Sequence record: MT446422.1
Source of the DNA: Escherichia virus TH57
Direction: 5' to 3' (one strand)
DNA length: 64,000 nt
Below are positions 4,763-60,029 of this stretch, in pieces. The position numbers and the translations under genes were made by a program. The notes beneath the pieces were generated by a model that was not told the origin of the DNA, did not search any database, and saw nothing but the letters and a program-made list of their open reading frames with translations. How positions within the stretch are numbered: position 1 is the first letter of the stretch; every line of letters starts with the position of its first letter.

Positions 4763-4990
4763 TTAGAAATCTTCGTCTTCGTCGTCGTCCATATCCTCAA
4801 GCTCGGCGCGTTTACCGGCAAGAGCATCACGAACACTGATATCATCGGAATCTTTTAGTTCAGCTTCTTTGCTGCGTTTTTTATAATAGCCTTCCAACTC
4901 CTTCAGACCGTCCATGGTCTGACAGGAACCAATCTTAGCCATAAAGCCTTCAATTGATGCTTCGTACATAATTTCTTCAAAGGATTTCAT
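4763..4990 (-). CDS. uvsW.1: UvsW.1 small acidic protein
   Basis: 75 aa ORF immediately downstream of uvsW, acidic C-terminus, same arrangement as T4. Confidence 0.7.
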   Translation of the reverse strand: MKSFEEIMYEASIEGFMAKIGSCQTMDGLKELEGYYKKRSKEAELKDSDDISVRDALAGKRAELEDMDDDEDEDF

Positions 4991-14365: not shown

Positions 14366-15184
14366 TTAAGAAATTCGTGATGCTGCGAGAGCAGACAAGT
14401 CCGCAAAGGACAGGGTAGGCTTGGTGCCTTTTTCTTCAACTGCTTCTGAAATGTAATTCAGTGCCGCAGCATCGTCTACATTTTTATTTATAGCGGCTTC
14501 GGTGATTGGTTTGTCGGTGGCTTCTACCTGACCTTTAACCATTTCAACGATAGCGCCAATTTTGGTACCGAATGCATCAGAGTATTCCATGCCTTCTACC
14601 AGAGAACCAACTTTTTCTTTTTGAGATTCAGTCAGGTCTTTAGTCGCTTCAGTCAACGCAACTTCACGTTGGACATAATTGATATAAGCATCACGCTTAG
14701 CAACTTCTTCGAACAGATTAGCGGTTTCTTCTTTCTGTTCAGCCAGTTCTTCCTGCATTTCTGCAACAACATCAACAGATTCTTCTGGAACAACAACGTT
14801 GTGCTCAACGAACAGTTCTTTCATGCCGGTGAACATGGATTCGAACAGGTCGGCTTTAATGCCACGGTCGACAGCCAGTTTATTTTCAGCGAGCCATTCT
14901 TTAGCAACGTGGTCCAGGAATTTAGCTGCAGATTCTTTCAGTTTTTTCTCTGCTTTTTCGTCGGCTTCTTCTTTATTCTTTTCGACTTCTTCTTCAGCTT
15001 TTTCAGCGATGGCGTGAATGTGAGATTCTGCCAGTTTGATGGCGTGTTGCTTGACGGTAGCTTCGAATACAGTGCCGAAGGTAGCTTTCGCTTCCGGGGA
15101 CAAATTAACTGATTCGAAAATACTATCAAGAGCAACGGAAGCATCGATATTCTGAGCTTCAGAAATGAGTTGTTCTTTAAGCAT
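14366..15184 (-). CDS. 22: prohead core scaffold protein gp22
   Basis: 272 aa, acidic coiled-coil-rich, position between 21 and 23. Confidence 0.85.
   Translation of the reverse strand: MLKEQLISEAQNIDASVALDSIFESVNLSPEAKATFGTVFEATVKQHAIKLAESHIHAIAEKAEEEVEKNKEEADEKAEKKLKESAAKFLDHVAKEWLAENKLAVDRGIKADLFESMFTGMKELFVEHNVVVPEESVDVVAEMQEELAEQKEETANLFEEVAKRDAYINYVQREVALTEATKDLTESQKEKVGSLVEGMEYSDAFGTKIGAIVEMVKGQVEATDKPITEAAINKNVDDAAALNYISEAVEEKGTKPTLSFADLSALAASRIS
14485..14492 (-). promoter_or_regulatory. late promoter box TATAAATA (gene 23)
   Basis: exact TATAAATA on minus strand within the 3' end of gene 22, as for T4 P23. Confidence 0.55.
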
Positions 15185-15213: not shown

Positions 15214-15221
15214 TATTTATA
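15214..15221 (-). promoter_or_regulatory. late promoter box TATAAATA (gene 22)
   Basis: exact TATAAATA about 30 nt upstream of gene 22 start. Confidence 0.6.
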
Positions 15222-15855
15222 ACGTCTTTAAAGCCTCTGCGAGAGCCATAAAGGCGTCATCGGCACTGGTATCGGCAACTGCCGTTTGTGATTCTGTAAT
15301 CTGCTTTGGTTTGACCCAAGCGTCCGGAGCACTTGGCCCCCATACTGCATCTACTCCAACCGTCAATTTAAAACCTTCATTAACGATGCTATAACCTTTT
15401 GCTGATTTAGTCAGGGAACCAAGTCCACGACTAGATACACCAGGAATCCAACCTGCTCTTATATTCGCAGCAAGTTTATCACCTGGGCCATGGTCGCCTT
15501 CGATAATACGCGCGCGGCCATATACATCATTACCTTTCCACCACATGTCCTCGATAATAATTGCCGCCTGCATAGGGTCAACGTTTGCACGAGGTGGATG
15601 GTTTAATTCTCCAAGAGACTGTTTGGTTTCAACCTGTTCGGCGATATAGTCCGCAACGGCTTTTTCCAAAATATGTTTAGGATAAAGTCGTTTATTACGG
15701 TTAACAACTTCAGCTTGTAGGAAAATACCTTCAATATAAAGTCCTGGCTTTAAACCGCTGCTGGAACCATCATGAGATTCCAACATCGGTACACCATCTT
15801 TAATTTCGCCCGGTTGACCCCAGTGTTCAATTAGTAACTCTGGTTTCTGTTCCAT
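15217..15855 (-). CDS. 21: prohead core protein and protease gp21
   Basis: 212 aa, same length as T4 gp21; position 68-21-22. Confidence 0.85.
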   Translation of the reverse strand: MEQKPELLIEHWGQPGEIKDGVPMLESHDGSSSGLKPGLYIEGIFLQAEVVNRNKRLYPKHILEKAVADYIAEQVETKQSLGELNHPPRANVDPMQAAIIIEDMWWKGNDVYGRARIIEGDHGPGDKLAANIRAGWIPGVSSRGLGSLTKSAKGYSIVNEGFKLTVGVDAVWGPSAPDAWVKPKQITESQTAVADTSADDAFMALAEALKTL

Positions 15856-44335: not shown

Positions 44336-45008
44336 AATTAATTGCGATTGTGGGTAAAAAACGCAGTGGTAAAGATACGACTGCTGATTATGTTATTAGT
44401 CAAAACGGAACAAAGTGGCAGCTTGCGGGTCCGATTAAAGAAGCGCTTTATAAAGCGTGGATTCGTCAAGACCTACCACACAATTTGACCCTGGAAAATT
44501 TTGATGGACAAGGTTATGACCGTGAAAAAACCTTAATAATGAACAACACCGAAGCTTATATTCTTCTGGTTGATGCTCTTGAATGGTTGAAACAACAATA
44601 CAATCTTGACCTTCCGAATCCAGATATGGTTCGTAAAATCATTGAATTTCACACACTAAATAATGTTGAGCCCTGGACAGTTAGACGTTTCATGCAGACC
44701 CTTGGAACTGACATTGTTTGTACAGAGTTCGACAGCATGTTTTGGATTAAAACTTTTGCATGCGACTATCTTGACAACCTCTATTCTGGATATAAATATT
44801 ACGTTGTCCCAGATGTTCGCCAAAAGAACGAACTTGATTCGCTTCGGGCGATGGGTGCTACAATAATTTTTGTAGAACGCGATGAAGCAAATCATTCTAC
44901 TGATACACACATTACGGAAGCTGGACTTCCACCACTAGCTAGTGACATTGTTATTAAAAACAATGGCACACTCGAAGAACTTTTTGATAAAATTAATAAG
45001 GTAATATA

Positions 45009-45009
<1 letters not shown>
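44332..45009 (+). CDS. 1: deoxynucleoside monophosphate kinase gp1
   Basis: 225 aa; P-loop GKKRSGKDT; position as in T4. Confidence 0.9.
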
Positions 45010-45693
<684 letters not shown>

Positions 45694-45694
<1 letters not shown>

Positions 45695-45723
45695 TGTACA
45701 AATGAGTGTAGGTGCAGTAATAT
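45694..45723 (+). promoter_or_regulatory. early promoter cassette (GTGTAC -35-like, TAATAT -10 inside inverted repeat)
   Basis: gtgtac, 18-nt spacer, taatat; -10 sits in the loop of AGTGTAGG/CCTACACT. Confidence 0.5.
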
Positions 45724-45758
45724 GTTCCTACACTAACGAATGAACAAACGGAGTTAAA

Positions 45759-46091
45759 ATGAACATCAAGACTTACAACGAGTTTTTAGCCGAATCCGCC
45801 ATCAATGAGACCAAATCAATTGATGATAGTGAAGGCTCTCTGAAATTTGGTTTAACCAAAAATGCAGATGGTGTTTTCTTTCAGATTGGTAATGAACGTT
45901 TTCAAACGTCCAAATATTCCAAAGCTGCAGTTGAAGCTGTCCTGAAATCTGGTGGCAAGTGGAAAGGCAAAGAAGGTACTAAAGAAATTGGTATCGCTGT
46001 TGACGGCGGTATGGCTTATTTTAAAATTGGCGATGAACAATTTATTATGTCTGCTCGCGGACGTAAAGAACTGGCAAAACTTTATAAATAA
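45759..46091 (+). CDS. internal head protein-like protein with capsid targeting sequence
   Basis: N-terminus MNIKTYNEFLAE resembles the T4 IP capsid targeting sequence MKTYQEFIAE with (L/I)xE gp21 cleavage motif. Confidence 0.65.
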   Translation: MNIKTYNEFLAESAINETKSIDDSEGSLKFGLTKNADGVFFQIGNERFQTSKYSKAAVEAVLKSGGKWKGKEGTKEIGIAVDGGMAYFKIGDEQFIMSARGRKELAKLYK

Positions 46092-46099
46092 GGTTTCTT

Positions 46100-46372
46100 A
46101 TGAAAACTTTCAATGAATTTTTCAACGAGTCCCAACTGAATGAAGAAGTAAAAATTAGTAAAGCAGTCAAAGCTATGATTGACAATATCAATCACCTGTA
46201 TAGCATTGACTTGACTGACCATATAACAATTGGTAACAAACGCAACTTTTTCGCGTTTGACATTTCAGAACTTGACCAGAACCAAATTAATAACATTGAG
46301 CGTTTTGCCAATGACAAGGGTCTCCGCCATGAGACAGCTGGTTATAAAAAATATGCAATTTATCTAAAATAG
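46100..46372 (+). CDS. internal head protein-like protein (CTS-bearing)
   Basis: N-terminus MKTFNEFFNE. Confidence 0.65.
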   Translation: MKTFNEFFNESQLNEEVKISKAVKAMIDNINHLYSIDLTDHITIGNKRNFFAFDISELDQNQINNIERFANDKGLRHETAGYKKYAIYLK

Positions 46373-46380
46373 GATTTCAA

Positions 46381-46680
46381 ATGCAAACTTTTCATGAATT
46401 TTTGGTAGAAAATAATTACCTGGCAGAAGCAAAAACCTGGCCTCTGGGCCTTCAGAAGAAAAACACCTACAAATGGGTTGACTTCAAAGACAAAGGCGAC
46501 GCTGAAGACTTTGACCAGCTGCGTAAAAATGGTTATACTTTCCTTGACTCAAACTATAACAAAATTACCTCATTTAGTCAGAAATCCAGCATCGCATATA
46601 TTGAAACTGGTAAAAACACCCCTAAGAACATCACTGACGACTTCGCAGCTTATGGCGTGATTCGCGGTTCAAAAATGTAA
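46381..46680 (+). CDS. internal head protein-like protein (CTS-bearing)
   Basis: N-terminus MQTFHEFLVE; paralogous to 59410..59673 (DAEDF...KNGY.F motif). Confidence 0.65.
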   Translation: MQTFHEFLVENNYLAEAKTWPLGLQKKNTYKWVDFKDKGDAEDFDQLRKNGYTFLDSNYNKITSFSQKSSIAYIETGKNTPKNITDDFAAYGVIRGSKM

Positions 46681-46709
46681 TGTACATGATGGGATAGTTG
46701 CAGTATAAT
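46680..46709 (+). promoter_or_regulatory. early promoter cassette
   Basis: tgtaca, 17-nt spacer, tataat flanked by gggatag/atctca imperfect inverted repeat, then conserved catcaactactggag leader. Confidence 0.5.
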
Positions 46710-46735
46710 TATCTCATCAACTACTGGAGCTACTA

Positions 46736-47014
46736 ATGAAAACTTATCAAGAATTTATTAACGAATCAATTAGTCACCCGGATATGCTGGAAGACCTGAA
46801 AGGACATCTGATGGTTAAGGCCAAACCGGTTGATGGTGGCGCATTTGAGTTGTTTCTTGTTAAAGGCGAAAACGGTCCTGATAACAAGAAAGTTTCAGCA
46901 ATGATGTTGACTAAAGGTTACAAAGTCAGTTCTTCCTGGAATGCTCCATTCACTTACGCGGTAAGCCCTCGTGAACTGAAAAAAGTTAAAGCTGGACAAT
47001 ATACAAAAATTTAG
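46736..47014 (+). CDS. internal head protein-like protein (CTS-bearing)
   Basis: N-terminus MKTYQEFINE. Confidence 0.7.
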   Translation: MKTYQEFINESISHPDMLEDLKGHLMVKAKPVDGGAFELFLVKGENGPDNKKVSAMMLTKGYKVSSSWNAPFTYAVSPRELKKVKAGQYTKI

Positions 47015-47043
47015 TGTACGTGATGAGATAGTTGTAGTATAAT
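47014..47043 (+). promoter_or_regulatory. early promoter cassette
   Basis: gtgtac, 18-nt spacer, tataat, conserved leader tatcccatcaactactggag. Confidence 0.5.
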
Positions 47044-47068
47044 TATCCCATCAACTACTGGAGACAAC

Positions 47069-47302
47069 ATGAAAACTTATCAAGAATTTATTAATGAAAC
47101 TGCTGATGTTAAAGTGCAATTCATTTACACCGGCAAGAAAGATAAAATGGGCGAAATGCCTTATGGAACTCTCCGCGACGCCTTAGATAATTACGGTCAG
47201 CTCGGCGGTGAAGAGTTTGGGGACTATTTTGTTATCCAGGGTCCAGCAGAAGTTATCGAGAAATGGGCTAAACAGTATAAATCAATTTTCCGTAAAAAAT
47301 AA
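47069..47302 (+). CDS. internal head protein-like protein (CTS-bearing)
   Basis: N-terminus MKTYQEFINE. Confidence 0.7.
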   Translation: MKTYQEFINETADVKVQFIYTGKKDKMGEMPYGTLRDALDNYGQLGGEEFGDYFVIQGPAEVIEKWAKQYKSIFRKK

Positions 47303-47333
47303 GTGTACTTTTAGATATGGGATAGTGTATAAT
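47303..47333 (+). promoter_or_regulatory. early promoter cassette
   Basis: gtgtac ... GGGATAgtgTATAATtATCCC (inverted repeat enclosing -10), conserved leader. Confidence 0.5.
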
Positions 47334-47361
47334 TATCCCATCAACTACTGAGGAGAATAAA

Positions 47362-47547
47362 ATGAAACGTTGCGAATTAATTAGAAATGTTACTGCCCTT
47401 GTTGCTGTTTCCGCTTTCGGTTTTAGCATGTTTGCTGGCTTTATGTTGAATATGCTTTCAACTTCTGAGAATACAATCTCTTTAGTAGTTGCATTTTTAA
47501 TTGGTTCAATCTCTTTCGTTATGGATAAAATCTCCAAAGGTGAGTAA
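47362..47547 (+). CDS. hypothetical small membrane protein
   Basis: 61 aa, two hydrophobic segments; RBS GAGGAG. Confidence 0.45.
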   Translation: MKRCELIRNVTALVAVSAFGFSMFAGFMLNMLSTSENTISLVVAFLIGSISFVMDKISKGE

Positions 47548-47548
47548 A

Positions 47549-47938
47549 ATGTATAAAGTGTATGCGGATTATCAGGCAAATCCATCTGAAAAACCAGAAT
47601 GTCAAATTGGGTGGGCACATGACACCCTGCTTGAAGCGGTAGATAATGCCCAGAAATTAGGATATAGTTACGTAGATATTGTTCAACCATCTGGAACAGT
47701 TATTACTCTTGAAGAATTCAAGAATATCAAAACAAACTTTTTGCTCTTTGCTGGTGATAGCTATTATCCTCGCGGCGGTTATGCTGACTTAATTGCAAAA
47801 GCTGCGACTGAAGATGAACTGCGTGATATCATTAAAGAAAACGAGAAGAAGCCTTGTTATGGTTCCAACCGTTTTGACTGGTGGCAGATTGTTAATGCCA
47901 ATACGCATACTATTGTTGATGAAGGAACATGCGAATGA
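47549..47938 (+). CDS. hypothetical protein
   Basis: 129 aa from ATG at 47549; stop overlaps next start (ATGA). Confidence 0.5.
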   Translation: MYKVYADYQANPSEKPECQIGWAHDTLLEAVDNAQKLGYSYVDIVQPSGTVITLEEFKNIKTNFLLFAGDSYYPRGGYADLIAKAATEDELRDIIKENEKKPCYGSNRFDWWQIVNANTHTIVDEGTCE

Positions 47939-48408
47939 ATATCAAATTTGGTCAGACCATCCCTAAAGGTTATGTGATTGAAATTGAAACCTGGGAAAAT
48001 GATGGTGACAACTATAAAACCCAGACTGTATTTGGTGTAGAAGAACAAGAAATTCAACAGTACAAATATATCCTGGAACTTTTCCATGGTTCGCATTGCA
48101 ACAACCGCAATAAATGTGGTAATTCAGAATGGGATGTGGTTAAACACTTGGTTATCGCCCACATTGAATCTGGTGTAAAATCTGGTCAGTTAACCCATGA
48201 ATTTTTAAGTAAGGTTCTGGGTGTAGAAGATTTAGATGCATTGCTAAATGGCGATGAAGAATACTACCTGAATGAAGCCCTGACCGAACTTTTAGGTATG
48301 GCTTGTGAATATGATGGTGATTTCATGCGTGTAATTTCTTATGTTAAGCTATATATAATCGAAGAAGAAATCCAAATCCCATCTGTTAAAGCGCTTGATA
48401 TGCTTTAA
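47935..48408 (+). CDS. hypothetical protein
   Basis: 157 aa, start chosen at ATGA overlap with upstream stop. Confidence 0.5.
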   Translation: MNIKFGQTIPKGYVIEIETWENDGDNYKTQTVFGVEEQEIQQYKYILELFHGSHCNNRNKCGNSEWDVVKHLVIAHIESGVKSGQLTHEFLSKVLGVEDLDALLNGDEEYYLNEALTELLGMACEYDGDFMRVISYVKLYIIEEEIQIPSVKALDML

Positions 48409-58068: not shown

Positions 58069-58560
58069 ATGAATATATTCGAAATGTTACGCATAGATGA
58101 AGGTTGTAAGTTGGATTTGTACCGTGACACCGAAGGCTTTTGGACCATCGGCATCGGTCAATTGATAACTAAGAACCCATCGAAAGACGTTGCTCGCGCT
58201 GAGCTGGACAAATTAATGGGTCGTGTTTGCAACGGTAGGATTACCCAGATTGAAGCTGAAACCTTGTTTAACCGTTCAGTGGAAAAAGCTAAAGCCGGAA
58301 TCTTGAAACATCCTGTCTTAAAACCTGTTTATGATGTACTGGATGAAGTTCGTCGTTGCGCACTCATTAATATGGTATTCCAAATGGGTGTAGCTGGTGT
58401 AGCTGGTTTTCCTAAGGGGCTGCGATTGCTCAAGGCTAAATCATGGGAAGCTGCTGCTAAGGAACTGGCTGACTCAAGATGGTATAAAGTCCAGACTCCG
58501 AACCGGGCCAAACGAGTTATTGAAACTTTCCGTACTGGAACTTTTGACGCATACAAATGA
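58069..58560 (+). CDS. e: endolysin (T4 lysozyme, gene e)
   Basis: 163 aa; [12 protein letters not shown]...DTEG..TIGIG...[13 protein letters not shown]...NRAKRVI.TFRTGT.DAYK matches T4 lysozyme with Glu11, Asp20, Thr26. Confidence 0.95.
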
Positions 58561-58616: not shown

Positions 58617-59033
58617 ATGACTCGCATTAATTTAACCCTGGTATCTGAACTCGCTGACCAACATCTTATGGCTGAATATCGTGAACTTCCTCGCGTGTTT
58701 GGTGCTGTTCGTAAGCATGTGCAAAATGGTAAAAAGGTGTCTGACTTTAAAATCCCATCATCTTTTCTTTTAGGGACTGGCCATGTCACCTTCTTTTATG
58801 ATAAGCTTTTGTTCCTTAAAAACAGGCATCAAGAACTTATTGCGGAATGTTTAAAGCGAGGGTTTAACATAAAAGATATTTCTACCCAAGATTTAAATGA
58901 TATTCCTGATGAATGGAAGAATGATTATCAACCATCAATCTGGTCAATTGAAATCAGTCAAGCCAGACTGAATGAGAAAATTTCTCAAAAGCCTACCTGG
59001 TACAAATACTATGGGAAAGCTGTGTACGCTTAA
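58617..59033 (+). CDS. denV: endonuclease V (pyrimidine dimer DNA glycosylase/AP lyase, DenV)
   Basis: 138 aa; [35 protein letters not shown] matches remembered T4 DenV. Confidence 0.95.
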
Positions 59034-59081: not shown

Positions 59082-59396
59082 ATGAAAACTTATCAAGAAT
59101 TTATTACTGAATCTACCCAAAAACGTGTTGAAGGCGGTTATGTCTGGATTGAACAATTAACCCCACCAAGTGAAACGAGCACGGGTTCGTGGAAAATTAC
59201 TGTTGATGGCCCTGGTGGAAAACGTAAGACTATTAAAGAAATTAAAGGCTATTATGATGAAGCCAAATCATGGGCTGGTAGTCATGTAATGCAGATTAAA
59301 ATTGCAAACCCGGATAACGTTCATGCGGCAAAAGCATTCCGTCGCATTGGTAATAAACTTTATGATGCGTTTTTGCGTGATTTCCCTAAAGAGTAA
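59082..59396 (+). CDS. internal head protein-like protein (CTS-bearing)
   Basis: N-terminus MKTYQEFITE from ATG at 59082. Confidence 0.65.
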   Translation: MKTYQEFITESTQKRVEGGYVWIEQLTPPSETSTGSWKITVDGPGGKRKTIKEIKGYYDEAKSWAGSHVMQIKIANPDNVHAAKAFRRIGNKLYDAFLRDFPKE

Positions 59397-59409
59397 TTAA
59401 AGAGACATT

Positions 59410-59673
59410 ATGAAAACTTATCAAGAATTTATTACTGAATCTGCTAAAGCTCCTACCGGTGCTTTTAAAGTCCGCGCCTTCGCTGGTGATGCTGAAGACT
59501 TTGGCACCATGAAGCGCAATGGTTATTCTTTCTTTGGTGGCGATGGTAAAGAAATTGTTACCTATGCAAAACGCCGCGAAATCGCATTCGTGGTTGCTGG
59601 TAAGAAAGTTGATGTTGACGATATTGAATGGGATTTTGATACCTTTGGTATTGTTTCTGGCGGTAAAGCATAA
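59410..59673 (+). CDS. internal head protein-like protein (CTS-bearing)
   Basis: N-terminus MKTYQEFITE; paralog of 46381..46680. Confidence 0.7.
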   Translation: MKTYQEFITESAKAPTGAFKVRAFAGDAEDFGTMKRNGYSFFGGDGKEIVTYAKRREIAFVVAGKKVDVDDIEWDFDTFGIVSGGKA

Positions 59674-59675
59674 CT

Positions 59676-59704
59676 GTTTACTTTATGATGGGATAGTGTA
59701 TAAT
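59676..59704 (+). promoter_or_regulatory. sigma70-type early promoter (best match in window)
   Basis: GTTTAC, 17-nt spacer, TATAAT; -10 inside GGGATA/TATCCC inverted repeat; conserved leader. Confidence 0.65.
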
Positions 59705-59729
59705 TATCCCATCAACTTGGAGCGAATAA

Positions 59730-60029
59730 ATGAAAACTTATCAAGAATTTATTACTGAAGCCAAAGCTCCTAAAGCATTTCAAATTGGGGTTCAGGGTAA
59801 TTTAGACCAACAATACGTTGATGCTATTGTAGCAAGCCTCGGCAAGCAGGGTGTACAAGTGGATTTGGTTGATTTTACTAAAGGTAATACTTTTAATATT
59901 GTCACATCTAAAGGTTCTTTAGCTAAAGTTAAAAAGGCCTTTGGCGTAGCACAAGCATATGAAATCGACCATTCCGAATTGGAAAATAAAGGTCGCCAGA
60001 ACACAATTAAAGGCTCTGGTTCTTTCTAA
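59730..60029 (+). CDS. internal head protein-like protein (CTS-bearing)
   Basis: N-terminus MKTYQEFITE. Confidence 0.7.
   Translation: MKTYQEFITEAKAPKAFQIGVQGNLDQQYVDAIVASLGKQGVQVDLVDFTKGNTFNIVTSKGSLAKVKKAFGVAQAYEIDHSELENKGRQNTIKGSGSF

What the first reader, a model, noticed from the sequence alone, without database searches (positions are those of the whole stretch)
45759..47302. Expanded cluster of five internal-protein-like genes carrying the capsid targeting sequence, at the ipI position next to 57B
Five consecutive ORFs (77-110 aa) begin with MNIKTYNEFLAE, MKTFNEFFNE, MQTFHEFLVE, MKTYQEFINE and MKTYQEFINE. This matches the T4 internal-protein capsid targeting sequence (MKTYQEFIAE), which is cleaved by the gp21 prohead protease after (L/I)xE. 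Downstream sequences are unrelated to each other. T4 has one gene (ipI) at this locus; here there are five, each predicted to be packaged and injected with the DNA. In T4, IPI* is an injected inhibitor of a type IV restriction system, so each of these is a candidate injected anti-defence effector.
Basis: partly seen in the sequence, partly recalled or inferred. Interest (0 to 1): 0.75.

Follow-up and report, generated by a model that had tools for sequence, protein, structure and literature searches.

The report
Five injected-protein genes in T4-like phage
A T4-like phage carries five small genes in a row, each starting with the address tag that loads proteins into the phage head for injection with the DNA; this is real and probably an anti-restriction arsenal, but the locus and most of these genes are already described.

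Summary
Five consecutive + strand ORFs (45759-47302) start with the T4 capsid targeting sequence (CTS); no match appeared in 100 shuffles. They lie between 57B/Acb1 and trna.4, where T4 has only ipI. The window also encodes the gp21 prohead protease and gp22 scaffold that the CTS pathway needs.

The window is a Gaprivervirus (VR7/VR20/SP18-like; 97.5% identical to VR20). All five proteins are exact matches to public sequences. Three are already annotated as internal head proteins: Ip9, an unnumbered one, and Ip6. Variable ip loci have been known since 1994, and T4 Ip1-3 were each shown in 2025 to inhibit a different GmrSD type IV restriction enzyme.

Orf5 (Ip6) is 78% identical to Bas37_0260, shown by knockout in a 2025 preprint to inhibit McrBC.

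Additions from this work:
- orf1 (predicted Whirly/PUR-like fold) and orf4 (found only in this genus) carry the CTS but are annotated "hypothetical" in the records examined.
- A second cluster of three CTS genes lies at 59082-60029.
- Gene gain and loss breakpoints fall in repeated promoter/stem-loop plus CTS cassettes.
- The Ip9 body occurs without a CTS in a siphophage.
- The genus lacks the known hmC and glucosylation genes.

The parts
45239..45694 (+). 57B = Acb1 anti-CBASS nuclease; upstream flank of the ip locus
   Evidence: Pfam Acb1 PF23474, E 1.9e-59. It is syntenic with T4 57B. RefSeq labels it 'RNA ligase'.
45695..45758 (+). Promoter/stem-loop cassette (divergent PeSL-like) plus SD, upstream of orf1
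   Evidence: GTGTAC, then a GTGTAGG...CCTACAC hairpin around TAATAT. RNA fold -16.2 kcal/mol, z -2.8. It aligns with the other cassettes and with the T4 sequence upstream of ipI.
45759..46091 (+). orf1: CTS-bearing protein, 110 aa, motif shifted by 2 residues (MN-IKTYNEFLAE). Predicted Whirly/PUR-like (beta4-alpha)x2 body. Labelled 'hypothetical' in every annotated record listed except one ('profilin').
46083..46090 (+). T4 late-promoter consensus TATAAATA overlapping the orf1 stop, 9 nt before the orf2 ATG
   Evidence: Exact match. Conserved in the VR20/25/26-like loci. Function not shown.
46100..46372 (+). orf2 = Ip9 family internal head protein, 90 aa
   Evidence: phrog_7673, internal head protein, 1.7e-56. 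79% identical to RB15 Ip9, Q38376. 198 phage records. Annotated ip9 in VR20. AF2 pLDDT 77.4, generic alpha/beta fold.
46381..46680 (+). orf3: internal head protein, 99 aa, with two (L/I)xE sites (LVE-10, LAE-16). Paralogue of the ORF at 59410.
   Evidence: phrog_2667, 4.2e-20. BLASTP against the 59410 ORF body gives E 8e-13. 193 phage records. RefSeq calls it 'internal head protein' in VR20.
46681..46735 (+). PeSL cassette (early promoter, hairpin enclosing the -10, SD) upstream of orf4
   Evidence: TGTACA-N17-TATAAT. 14-bp hairpin, -16.5 kcal/mol, z -3.1. Repeat families D3/D4. Aligns with T4 early promoter regions.
46736..47014 (+). orf4: CTS-bearing ORFan restricted to this genus, 92 aa, labelled 'hypothetical' wherever annotated
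   Evidence: phrog_15565, unknown function. Only 17 phage records, all at least 97.6% identical. One 90% cluster among 5.8e9 proteins. phmmer against 1.8e9 representatives gave only spurious hits to Ig-repeat proteins. Absent from the VR25-like locus, with breakpoints inside the flanking repeats.
47015..47068 (+). PeSL cassette upstream of orf5
   Evidence: With the next 30 nt of CTS codons it forms a repeat about 88% identical to 46670-46765. Hairpin -14.4 kcal/mol.
47069..47302 (+). orf5 = Ip6/IpVI family, 77 aa; orthologue of Bas37_0260 (McrBC inhibitor)
   Evidence: phrog_8111, internal virion protein, 2.5e-51. 230 phage records. 78% identity over all 77 aa to Bas37_0260, E 2e-46. The knockout phenotype is in bioRxiv 10.1101/2025.11.20.689424.
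47303..47361 (+). PeSL cassette upstream of the trna.4-like gene; right boundary of the ip array
   Evidence: Repeat D3. Near-identical to the T4 sequence upstream of trna.4. Hairpin.
47362..47547 (+). trna.4-like small membrane protein; downstream flank
   Evidence: phrog_1692. VR20 annotation 'similar to T4 TRNA.4'.
44791..44798 (+). Late promoter consensus inside gene 1, upstream of 57A-57B-ip; probable source of late read-through transcription
   Evidence: Exact TATAAATA. T4 has one at the equivalent place in gene 1.
15217..15855 (-). gp21 prohead protease, the enzyme that removes the CTS
   Evidence: Pfam Peptidase_S77, E 6.5e-102.
14366..15184 (-). gp22 scaffolding core protein; the CTS targets cargo to this core
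   Evidence: Pfam T4_CASP, E 4.7e-91.
59082..60029 (+). Second ip locus: three more CTS genes. 59082-59396 is Ip10, 59410-59673 is an orf3 paralogue, 59730-60029 is Ip7.
   Evidence: CTS scan. ORFs. PHROGs. Source names Ip10 and Ip7. Sits after e and denV, corresponding to the T4 ipII/ipIII locus.

Best explanation
This is the hyperplastic ipI locus of a Gaprivervirus (VR7/VR20/SP18-like T4-type phage), holding five internal-protein (Ip) genes.

Proposed mechanism:
- Each product carries the roughly 10-residue capsid targeting sequence (CTS). The CTS binds the gp22 scaffolding core, so the protein is built into the prohead.
- The gp21 prohead protease then cuts after the (L/I)xE motif and releases the mature 67-98 aa body inside the head.
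- The mature protein is ejected with the DNA at the next infection, so it acts before any phage gene is expressed.

Most likely role: each body inhibits a particular host nuclease-type defence, above all type IV (modification-dependent) restriction enzymes. Orf5 (Ip6) is most probably a McrBC inhibitor.

How the array grows and shrinks: homologous recombination between repeated cassettes, each made of an early promoter, a stem-loop, an SD and the CTS codons, placed in front of the genes.

Shown here: the ORFs, the CTS, synteny, the presence of the protease and scaffold genes, family memberships, recombination breakpoints, and orf5 orthology.

Inferred: packaging, cleavage, injection, and the targets of orf1 to orf4.
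For: - CTS: present in all five ORFs, and 0 of 100 shuffles gave any match.
- Selection on the tag: CTS residues are invariant across orf1 homologues down to 52% identity.
- Cleavage motifs are present.
- Machinery: gp21, gp22, gp67, gp68, gp20 and gp23 are all in the window.
- Position: the same as T4 ipI.
- Families: orf2, orf3 and orf5 fall in PHROG/RefSeq internal head/virion protein families.
- CTS sufficiency: the CTS alone packages foreign proteins (PMC3012670 and PMC9026906).
- Function in T4: Ip1, Ip2 and Ip3 each block a distinct GmrSD enzyme (PMC12373910).
- Orf5: 78% identical to the McrBC inhibitor Bas37_0260.
- Recombination, VR25-like locus: it lacks exactly the orf4 body, and the junction lies inside the 97-nt repeat.
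- Recombination, VR26-like locus: it aligns (91% identity) up to the last CTS codon of orf3, then carries a different body.
- Cassettes: they fold as hairpins enclosing the -10 element and align with the T4 sequences upstream of ipI and trna.4.
Against: - No virion proteomics or N-terminal mapping was available to me for any Gaprivervirus.
- The orf1 CTS is displaced by two residues, and orf2 has F rather than L/I at P3.
- The only promoters directly in front of the genes look early. Late expression depends on read-through from TATAAATA sites at 44791 and 46083.
- None of the five bodies resembles T4 IPI, IPII or IPIII.
- Ip4-10 gave no reproducible inhibition of 15 GmrSD groups.
- The genus lacks gene 42 and the glucosyltransferases. 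The canonical target, enzymes that cut glucosyl-hmC DNA, may therefore not apply.
- The predicted Whirly/PUR-like fold of orf1 points to nucleic-acid binding rather than enzyme inhibition.
Confidence: 0.8

Rival explanations
1. The proteins are packaged through the CTS, but they serve mainly as bulk internal head proteins. They would neutralise DNA charge, help condense or eject the DNA, or fill the core, rather than act as specific anti-defence effectors.
For: Three of the five mature bodies are basic (pI 9.1-9.6). The orf1 model has a Whirly/PUR-like fold, typical of single-stranded nucleic-acid binders. T4 heads hold about 1000 DNA-embedded internal protein molecules (PMC3012670). Ip4-10 showed no reproducible anti-GmrSD activity.
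Against: A generic role does not explain five unrelated bodies, rapid presence/absence turnover between close relatives, or the genus-restricted orf4. All three T4 Ips, long assumed to be structural, proved to be specific restriction inhibitors, and so did the orf5 orthologue. Two mature bodies are near neutral (pI 6.8 and 7.8).
Confidence: 0.12
2. Some of the five are not virion cargo. The conserved 30-nt CTS-coding stretch together with the promoter cassette would persist mainly as a recombination and translation-initiation module. The proteins would then act as ordinary early cytoplasmic accessory proteins, or be decaying passengers.
For: Early-type promoters stand directly in front of orf1, orf4 and orf5. 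Recombination breakpoints coincide with the cassette and with the end of the CTS. The Ip9 body exists without any CTS as a free-standing 72-aa ORF in a Kagunavirus siphophage, so it can work without head delivery. The orf1 CTS is shifted and the orf2 CTS deviates from consensus.
Against: The CTS is conserved at the amino-acid level, including the residues known to matter (4 and 7 for targeting, 8 and 10 for processing), even where the DNA has diverged. T4 ipI has the same early-promoter cassette and is still packaged. All ORFs are intact in every record that holds them.
Confidence: 0.07
3. The shared N-termini are a chance or annotation artefact and the ORFs are not real genes.
For: None beyond small size. 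Pfam has no family for any of them.
Against: 0 hits in 100 shuffles against 8 observed. Each has an SD. All five are exact matches to proteins called in many independent genomes. All five have PHROG families.
Confidence: 0.01

Closest known systems
T4 internal proteins IPI, IPII and IPIII (Ip1-3), and the polymorphic ip loci of T-even phages with Ip4-Ip10 (Repoila et al. 1994, cited)
   Same: N-terminal CTS followed by a gp21 cleavage motif. Small, mutually unrelated mature bodies. The same two genomic positions (57B-trna.4, and next to e/denV). The same early promoter/stem-loop cassette upstream. Orf2 is Ip9 and orf5 is Ip6. The second cluster holds Ip10 and Ip7.
   Different: Five genes where T4 has one, and eight in the two loci against T4's three. 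None of the bodies is homologous to IPI, IPII or IPIII. Orf1 and orf4 are not annotated as Ips in any record I examined. The host phage genus lacks the hmC and glucosylation genes that define the known Ip targets.
Bas37_0260 of phage KarlGJung: injected McrBC inhibitor at the ipI locus (HIDEN-SEQ preprint, bioRxiv 10.1101/2025.11.20.689424)
   Same: Orf5 is 78% identical over the full 77 aa, has the same CTS, and holds the same position as the last ip gene before trna.4.
   Different: 22% divergence, and a different phage genus with different DNA chemistry. Inhibition of McrBC by the window's version is untested.
PeSL (promoter-early stem-loop) mobile regulatory cassettes of T4-type phages (Arbiol et al. 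2010, PMC2839356; Comeau et al. 2014, PMC4122927)
   Same: A sigma70-like -35/-10 pair with 17-nt spacing. A hairpin encloses the -10 element. The cassettes lie between variable small ORFs in a hyperplastic region, and indel breakpoints between close relatives fall inside them.
   Different: Here the repeat continues through the SD into the 30 nt that encode the CTS. The homology tract is therefore about 97 nt, and part of it is coding sequence.
Whirly / PUR-alpha / MRP1-MRP2 fold (single-stranded nucleic-acid binders); applies to orf1 only
   Different: 8-13% sequence identity. The model has only moderate confidence (pLDDT 77, pTM 0.64). Foldseek E-values are no better than 4e-3. Nucleic-acid binding is untested, and SsgA, a protein-binding relative of the fold, scores similarly.

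Membership tests
T4-type internal (head) proteins, i.e. CTS cargo | N-terminal capsid targeting sequence of about 10 residues (consensus MKTYQEFIxE). Aromatic residues at positions 4 and 7 are needed for targeting. | tested here: met
   All five carry it. Position 4 is Y or F and position 7 is F in each. In orf1 the motif starts at residue 3. The residue roles come from PMC9026906.
T4-type internal (head) proteins, i.e. CTS cargo | gp21 cleavage motif (L/I)xE at the end of the CTS | tested here: met
   The motifs are LAE, LVE, INE and INE in orf1, orf3, orf4 and orf5. Orf2 has FNE at 8-10 and a canonical LNE at 13-15. gp21 also cuts non-canonical xxE more weakly (PMC12991175). Actual cleavage was not tested.
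T4-type internal (head) proteins, i.e. CTS cargo | Encoded by a phage that has the gp21 prohead protease and the gp22 scaffolding core | tested here: met
   Peptidase_S77, 6.5e-102, at 15217-15855(-). T4_CASP, 4.7e-91, at 14366-15184(-). gp67, gp20 and gp23 are also present.
T4-type internal (head) proteins, i.e. CTS cargo | Located at one of the two conserved ip loci | tested here: met
   The genes lie between 57B and trna.4, exactly where T4 ipI lies.
T4-type internal (head) proteins, i.e. CTS cargo | Physically present in mature virions in processed form and ejected with the DNA | not testable with these tools
   This needs virion mass spectrometry and N-terminal mapping. I found no Gaprivervirus proteomics in the library.
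Ip-type inhibitors of type IV restriction enzymes (Ip1-3 of T4; Bas37_0260) | Sequence homology of the mature body to a characterised inhibitor | tested here: inconclusive
   Met for orf5 only: 78% identity to Bas37_0260, E 2e-46. Not met for orf1 to orf4 against IPI, IPII or IPIII, where only the CTS aligns.
Ip-type inhibitors of type IV restriction enzymes (Ip1-3 of T4; Bas37_0260) | Demonstrated relief of restriction by a specific GmrSD, McrBC or other type IV enzyme | not testable with these tools
   This is experimental. Published tests of ip4-10 against 15 GmrSD groups found nothing reproducible.
PeSL mobile regulatory cassettes | An early-type promoter combined with a stem-loop, repeated between variable ORFs and coinciding with indel breakpoints between close relatives | tested here: met
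   Repeats D3/D4 and I1. Promoter scan. Hairpins with z -2.0 to -5.6. Breakpoints. Comparison with T4. Published description.
Whirly/PUR-like nucleic-acid-binding fold (orf1) | Two beta4-alpha repeats forming the Whirly/PUR domain | tested here: inconclusive

The most novel reading that the evidence does not exclude
Gaprivervirus phages have no dCMP hydroxymethylase or glucosyltransferase but keep dCTPase, alc and denB, so their DNA probably carries an unidentified cytosine modification. They also carry the largest Ip set I saw: eight CTS genes across the two loci.

The most novel reading not excluded is that part of this set is not aimed at the glucosyl-hmC-specific GmrSD enzymes known from T4. 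It would instead target defences matched to the unknown base, or a different class of defence.

Two candidates stand out. Orf1 may be an injected Whirly/PUR-like single-stranded nucleic-acid binder that shields entering DNA or blocks a nucleic-acid sensor. Orf4, which is restricted to the genus, may be an inhibitor specific to an enzyme that recognises the genus's own modification.
Probability: 0.2. Interest if true: 0.55.

Novelty: already known. Interest (0 to 1): 0.25.

Why it matters
Injected Ip proteins are the phage's first line of counter-defence, because they act before any phage gene is transcribed. Recent work shows that each one is a highly specific inhibitor of a type IV restriction enzyme, and most Ips still have no known target.

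This window gives a compact set of eight candidates. One has a probable target (McrBC, for orf5). Two, orf1 and orf4, are not annotated as Ips in any record I examined. All come from a genus whose DNA modification is itself unknown, which makes it a reasonable starting set for de-orphaning screens and for host-range engineering of therapeutic T4-like phages.

It does not change current understanding. It is a well-populated example of a known phenomenon.

Tried and rejected
- **Pfam on all five:** no family.
- **PDB sequence search on all five:** nothing below E 0.5.
- **Homology of the bodies to T4 IPI, IPII or IPIII:** only the CTS aligns. An apparent orf1-IPIII BLASTP hit (E 1.6e-5) disappeared once the CTS was removed (E 0.063), and hhalign aligned only 11 CTS residues.
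- **orf1 versus Ip10, which share phrog_3966:** hhalign aligns only the CTS. That PHROG grouping appears to be driven by the tag.
- **Exhaustive phmmer of the orf4 body against 1.8e9 representatives:** apart from its own cluster, only three large Ig-repeat or repetitive proteins. I judged these spurious.
- **Dedicated late promoters in front of each gene:** only TATAAATA at 44791 and 46083 on the + strand.
- **A looser CTS pattern:** it also flagged the ORF at 4763-4990(-), which is the UvsW.1-like protein (phrog_1143), and trna.3 (MYKVY...). Both are false positives.
- **The Repoila 1994 paper and the VR7 genome papers:** not available in the library.
- **The 2026 NAR paper on glycosylated 5-hydroxycytosine:** it does not mention Gaprivervirus.
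Full report
**1. Observation**

- orf1, 45759-46091, 110 aa, MNIKTYNEFLAE
- orf2, 46100-46372, 90 aa, MKTFNEFFNE
- orf3, 46381-46680, 99 aa, MQTFHEFLVE
- orf4, 46736-47014, 92 aa, MKTYQEFINE
- orf5, 47069-47302, 77 aa, MKTYQEFINE

Each has an SD-like GGAG or AGG 5-9 nt upstream. A strict N-terminal CTS pattern finds eight ORFs in the 64-kb window and none in 100 shuffles.

The three extra hits form a second cluster at 59082-60029. It lies just after the lysozyme gene e and denV, which corresponds to the T4 ipII/ipIII locus.

T4 IPII and IPIII both begin MKTYQEFIAE. T4 IPI, the gene at this locus, begins MKTFKEFTSTTTPVSTITE. The quoted consensus is therefore the IPII/IPIII tag.

**2. Context and identity**

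The gene order upstream is gp2, gp3, gp1 (dNMP kinase), 57A and 57B, and downstream trna.4-like and trna.3-like genes. In T4 the only gene between 57B and trna.4 is ipI.

57B is the anti-CBASS nuclease Acb1 (Pfam 1.9e-59), so the array sits beside another counter-defence gene.

The window is a Gaprivervirus: 97.5% identical over 45000-48000 to phage VR20 and 96% to VR7. Sixteen records cover at least 80% of that stretch.

VR20 has the same five genes. RefSeq names orf2 "ip9, internal head protein", orf3 "internal head protein" and orf5 "ip6, internal virion protein". It calls orf1 and orf4 "hypothetical".

All eight CTS proteins of the window are exact matches to sequences already in public collections. 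The second cluster carries the source names Ip10 and Ip7.

**3. The machinery is present**

The window encodes the following:
- gp23 major capsid protein
- gp22 scaffold (T4_CASP, 4.7e-91)
- gp21 prohead protease (Peptidase_S77, 6.5e-102)
- gp67
- an ORF in the gp68 position (no Pfam match)
- gp20 portal

According to the literature:
- The first 10 residues of IPIII suffice to package foreign proteins.
- Residues 4 and 7 matter for targeting, and residues 8 and 10 for cleavage (PMC9026906; PMC3012670).
- gp21 prefers I/LxE but also cuts xxE weakly (PMC12991175).

In the window, position 4 is Y or F and position 7 is F in all five. An (L/I)xE motif closes the tag in orf1, orf3, orf4 and orf5. 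It ends at residue 10 in orf3, orf4 and orf5, and at residue 12 in orf1 because of the two-residue shift. Orf2 has FNE followed by LNE at 13-15, and orf1 and orf3 each have a second site.

In the orf1 family the CTS residues K, T, Y, F and E are invariant in homologues down to 52% identity. This argues for selection on the tag itself.

**4. The five bodies**

Without the CTS they are not similar to each other (best E 0.036). None resembles T4 IPI, IPII or IPIII.

- **Orf2** is Ip9. It is 79% identical to the original RB15 Ip9 and occurs in 198 phage records. Its AF2 model (pLDDT 77) is a generic alpha/beta sandwich with no informative neighbour. The same body occurs without any CTS as a 72-aa ORF in a Kagunavirus siphophage (L031 1507-1725). 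It also occurs as the C-terminus of a 756-aa Kuttervirus protein. The tag therefore looks like an add-on to a pre-existing accessory domain.
- **Orf3** (phrog_2667, 193 records) has a paralogue at 59410 (E about 1e-12).
- **Orf5** is Ip6/IpVI, found in 230 records. It is 78% identical over its full length to Bas37_0260 of phage KarlGJung. A 2025 preprint shows by knockout that this CTS-bearing gene at the ipI locus is needed specifically to overcome McrBC. This is the only one of the five with an experimentally characterised orthologue.
- **Orf4** is an ORFan. It occurs in 17 phage records, all at least 97.6% identical, and forms one cluster among 5.8 billion proteins. An exhaustive phmmer search found no credible remote relative.

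**5. How the array is built**

Repeated cassettes stand in front of orf4, orf5 and trna.4, with a more divergent one in front of orf1. Each has a -35-like (G/A)TGTAC, a 17-nt spacer, TATAAT, a hairpin enclosing the -10 element, and then CAACTACTGGAG (the SD). The hairpins fold at -14 to -21 kcal/mol, with z scores of -2.0 to -5.6.

The cassettes align with the T4 sequences upstream of ipI and trna.4. They fit the published PeSL elements, which mediate modular shuffling in hyperplastic regions (PMC4122927).

The repeat runs on through the 30 nt that encode the CTS. The tracts 46670-46765 and 47004-47098 are about 88% identical, and the orf4 and orf5 CTS codons are 97% identical.

Comparison with close relatives shows the cassettes in action:
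- The VR25-like locus lacks exactly the orf4 body, and its single cassette aligns to both window copies.
- The VR26-like locus aligns (91% identity) up to window position 46410, the last CTS codon of orf3. It then carries a different 80-aa body.

Across 28 IMG/VR loci that contain 57B, the number of CTS ORFs directly after it ranges from 0 to 5. Only the VR20/25/26 group has 4 or 5.

**6. Expression**

The cassettes are early-type promoters. The only + strand late-promoter consensus sites nearby are at 44791 and 46083. The first is inside gene 1, and T4 has one at the equivalent place. The second overlaps the orf1 stop codon. T4 ipI has the same arrangement and is nevertheless packaged, so this does not argue against packaging. 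Late supply is still inferred rather than shown.

**7. Mechanism and rivals**

The best-supported account is the classical one. The CTS targets the protein to the scaffolding core, gp21 processes it, and it is ejected with the DNA. Each body then acts as a narrow-spectrum inhibitor of a host nuclease defence.

Silas et al. 2025 showed that T4 Ip1, Ip2 and Ip3 each inhibit a different GmrSD enzyme. They proposed that both ip loci are dedicated to this enzyme family. They also found no reproducible target for ip4-10 (PMC12373910).

The rivals are given with their evidence in the Rival explanations section. They are a bulk DNA-associated role and loss of packaging in some members.

One caveat is specific to this genus. 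Two papers report that Gaprivervirus lacks the hmC-forming enzyme while keeping dCTPase, alc and denB, which implies an unknown base (PMC8056088; PMC12115623).

I confirmed part of this in VR20:
- Only a 167-aa ORF with no Pfam match lies between uvsX and imm, where T4 has segA, b-gt and gene 42.
- There is no a-gt gene between genes 47 and 55.
- gp56 is present.
- T4 gp42 and b-gt give no tblastn hit in VR20 1-50 kb or in the window.

The relevant host enzymes may therefore differ from those studied in T4.

**8. Comparison with what is known, and verdict**

The finding is a true and correctly interpreted example of the polymorphic ip locus of T-even phages. That locus has been known since Repoila et al. 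1994 (cited). The identical gene set is in GenBank (VR7, HM563683, and relatives), and three of the five genes are already named as internal proteins.

I rate it "already known" and of modest interest.
- two CTS proteins (orf1, orf4) not annotated as internal proteins in any record I examined
- a probable McrBC-inhibitor assignment for orf5
- a Whirly/PUR-like fold prediction for orf1
- CTS-less relatives of the Ip9 body
- breakpoint evidence that the cassette plus the CTS codons is the unit of recombination
- the mismatch between a large Ip arsenal and a genus without known hmC or glucosyl chemistry

Noticed in passing
window 59082-60029 (+): A second cluster of three CTS genes lies after e (58069-58560) and denV (58617-59033). 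The genes are Ip10 (104 aa), an 87-aa paralogue of orf3, and Ip7 (99 aa), all starting MKTYQEFITE. A strong PeSL hairpin lies at 59671-59729 (-21.5 kcal/mol, z -5.6). The gene order differs from T4, which has e-ipIII-ipII-denV.
   Followed up: partly
L031 1507-1725 (Kagunavirus OQ696342) and L032 (Kuttervirus MT074474, aagejoakim_85): The mature Ip9 domain occurs without a CTS as a free-standing 72-aa ORF in a siphophage (about 50% identity). It also forms the C-terminal end of a 756-aa Ackermannviridae protein (about 32% identity). This suggests the CTS was added to a pre-existing accessory domain. The siphophage record is flagged UNVERIFIED_ORG.
   Followed up: partly
window 45759-45767; L005 6484-6849: Orf1 homologues in other genera start directly with MKTY. 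In Gaprivervirus the corresponding Met is Ile and the start lies two codons upstream (MN-IKTY). Several public records call a 121-aa version from an upstream ATG that is closed by a stop codon in this window.
   Followed up: partly
L035 22916-23419 (VR20 AVV68_gp044) and VR20 1-50 kb: Where T4 has segA, b-gt and gene 42 (dCMP hydroxymethylase), VR20 has a single 167-aa ORF with no Pfam match. There is no a-gt between genes 47 and 55, and no dam hit. gp56 dCTPase is present at 68% identity. This fits published remarks that Gaprivervirus DNA carries an unidentified base. The 167-aa ORF is an untested candidate.
   Followed up: partly
window 45239-45694: 57B is clearly Acb1 (anti-CBASS, Pfam 1.9e-59), but RefSeq labels it 'RNA ligase' in VR20, VR7, SP18 and T4. 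This is a propagated misannotation.
   Followed up: no
window 46083-46090: An exact T4 late-promoter consensus TATAAATA is formed by the last codons and stop of orf1 (..LYK*), only 9 nt before the orf2 ATG. It is conserved in the VR20/25/26-like loci. A transcript starting there would have almost no leader for orf2 but could serve orf3 onward.
   Followed up: no
window 4763-4990 (-): The 75-aa UvsW.1-like protein starts MKSFEEIMYE, which loosely resembles the CTS. It belongs to phrog_1143 ('DNA helicase') and has an acidic tail. I treat the resemblance as chance.
   Followed up: yes
PHROGs phrog_3966 and phrog_2667: These PHROG families group Ip proteins whose bodies show no profile-level similarity; orf1 and Ip10 align only over the 11 CTS residues. 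The shared tag seems to drive the clustering, so membership of a family called 'internal head protein' says little about the body.
   Followed up: partly
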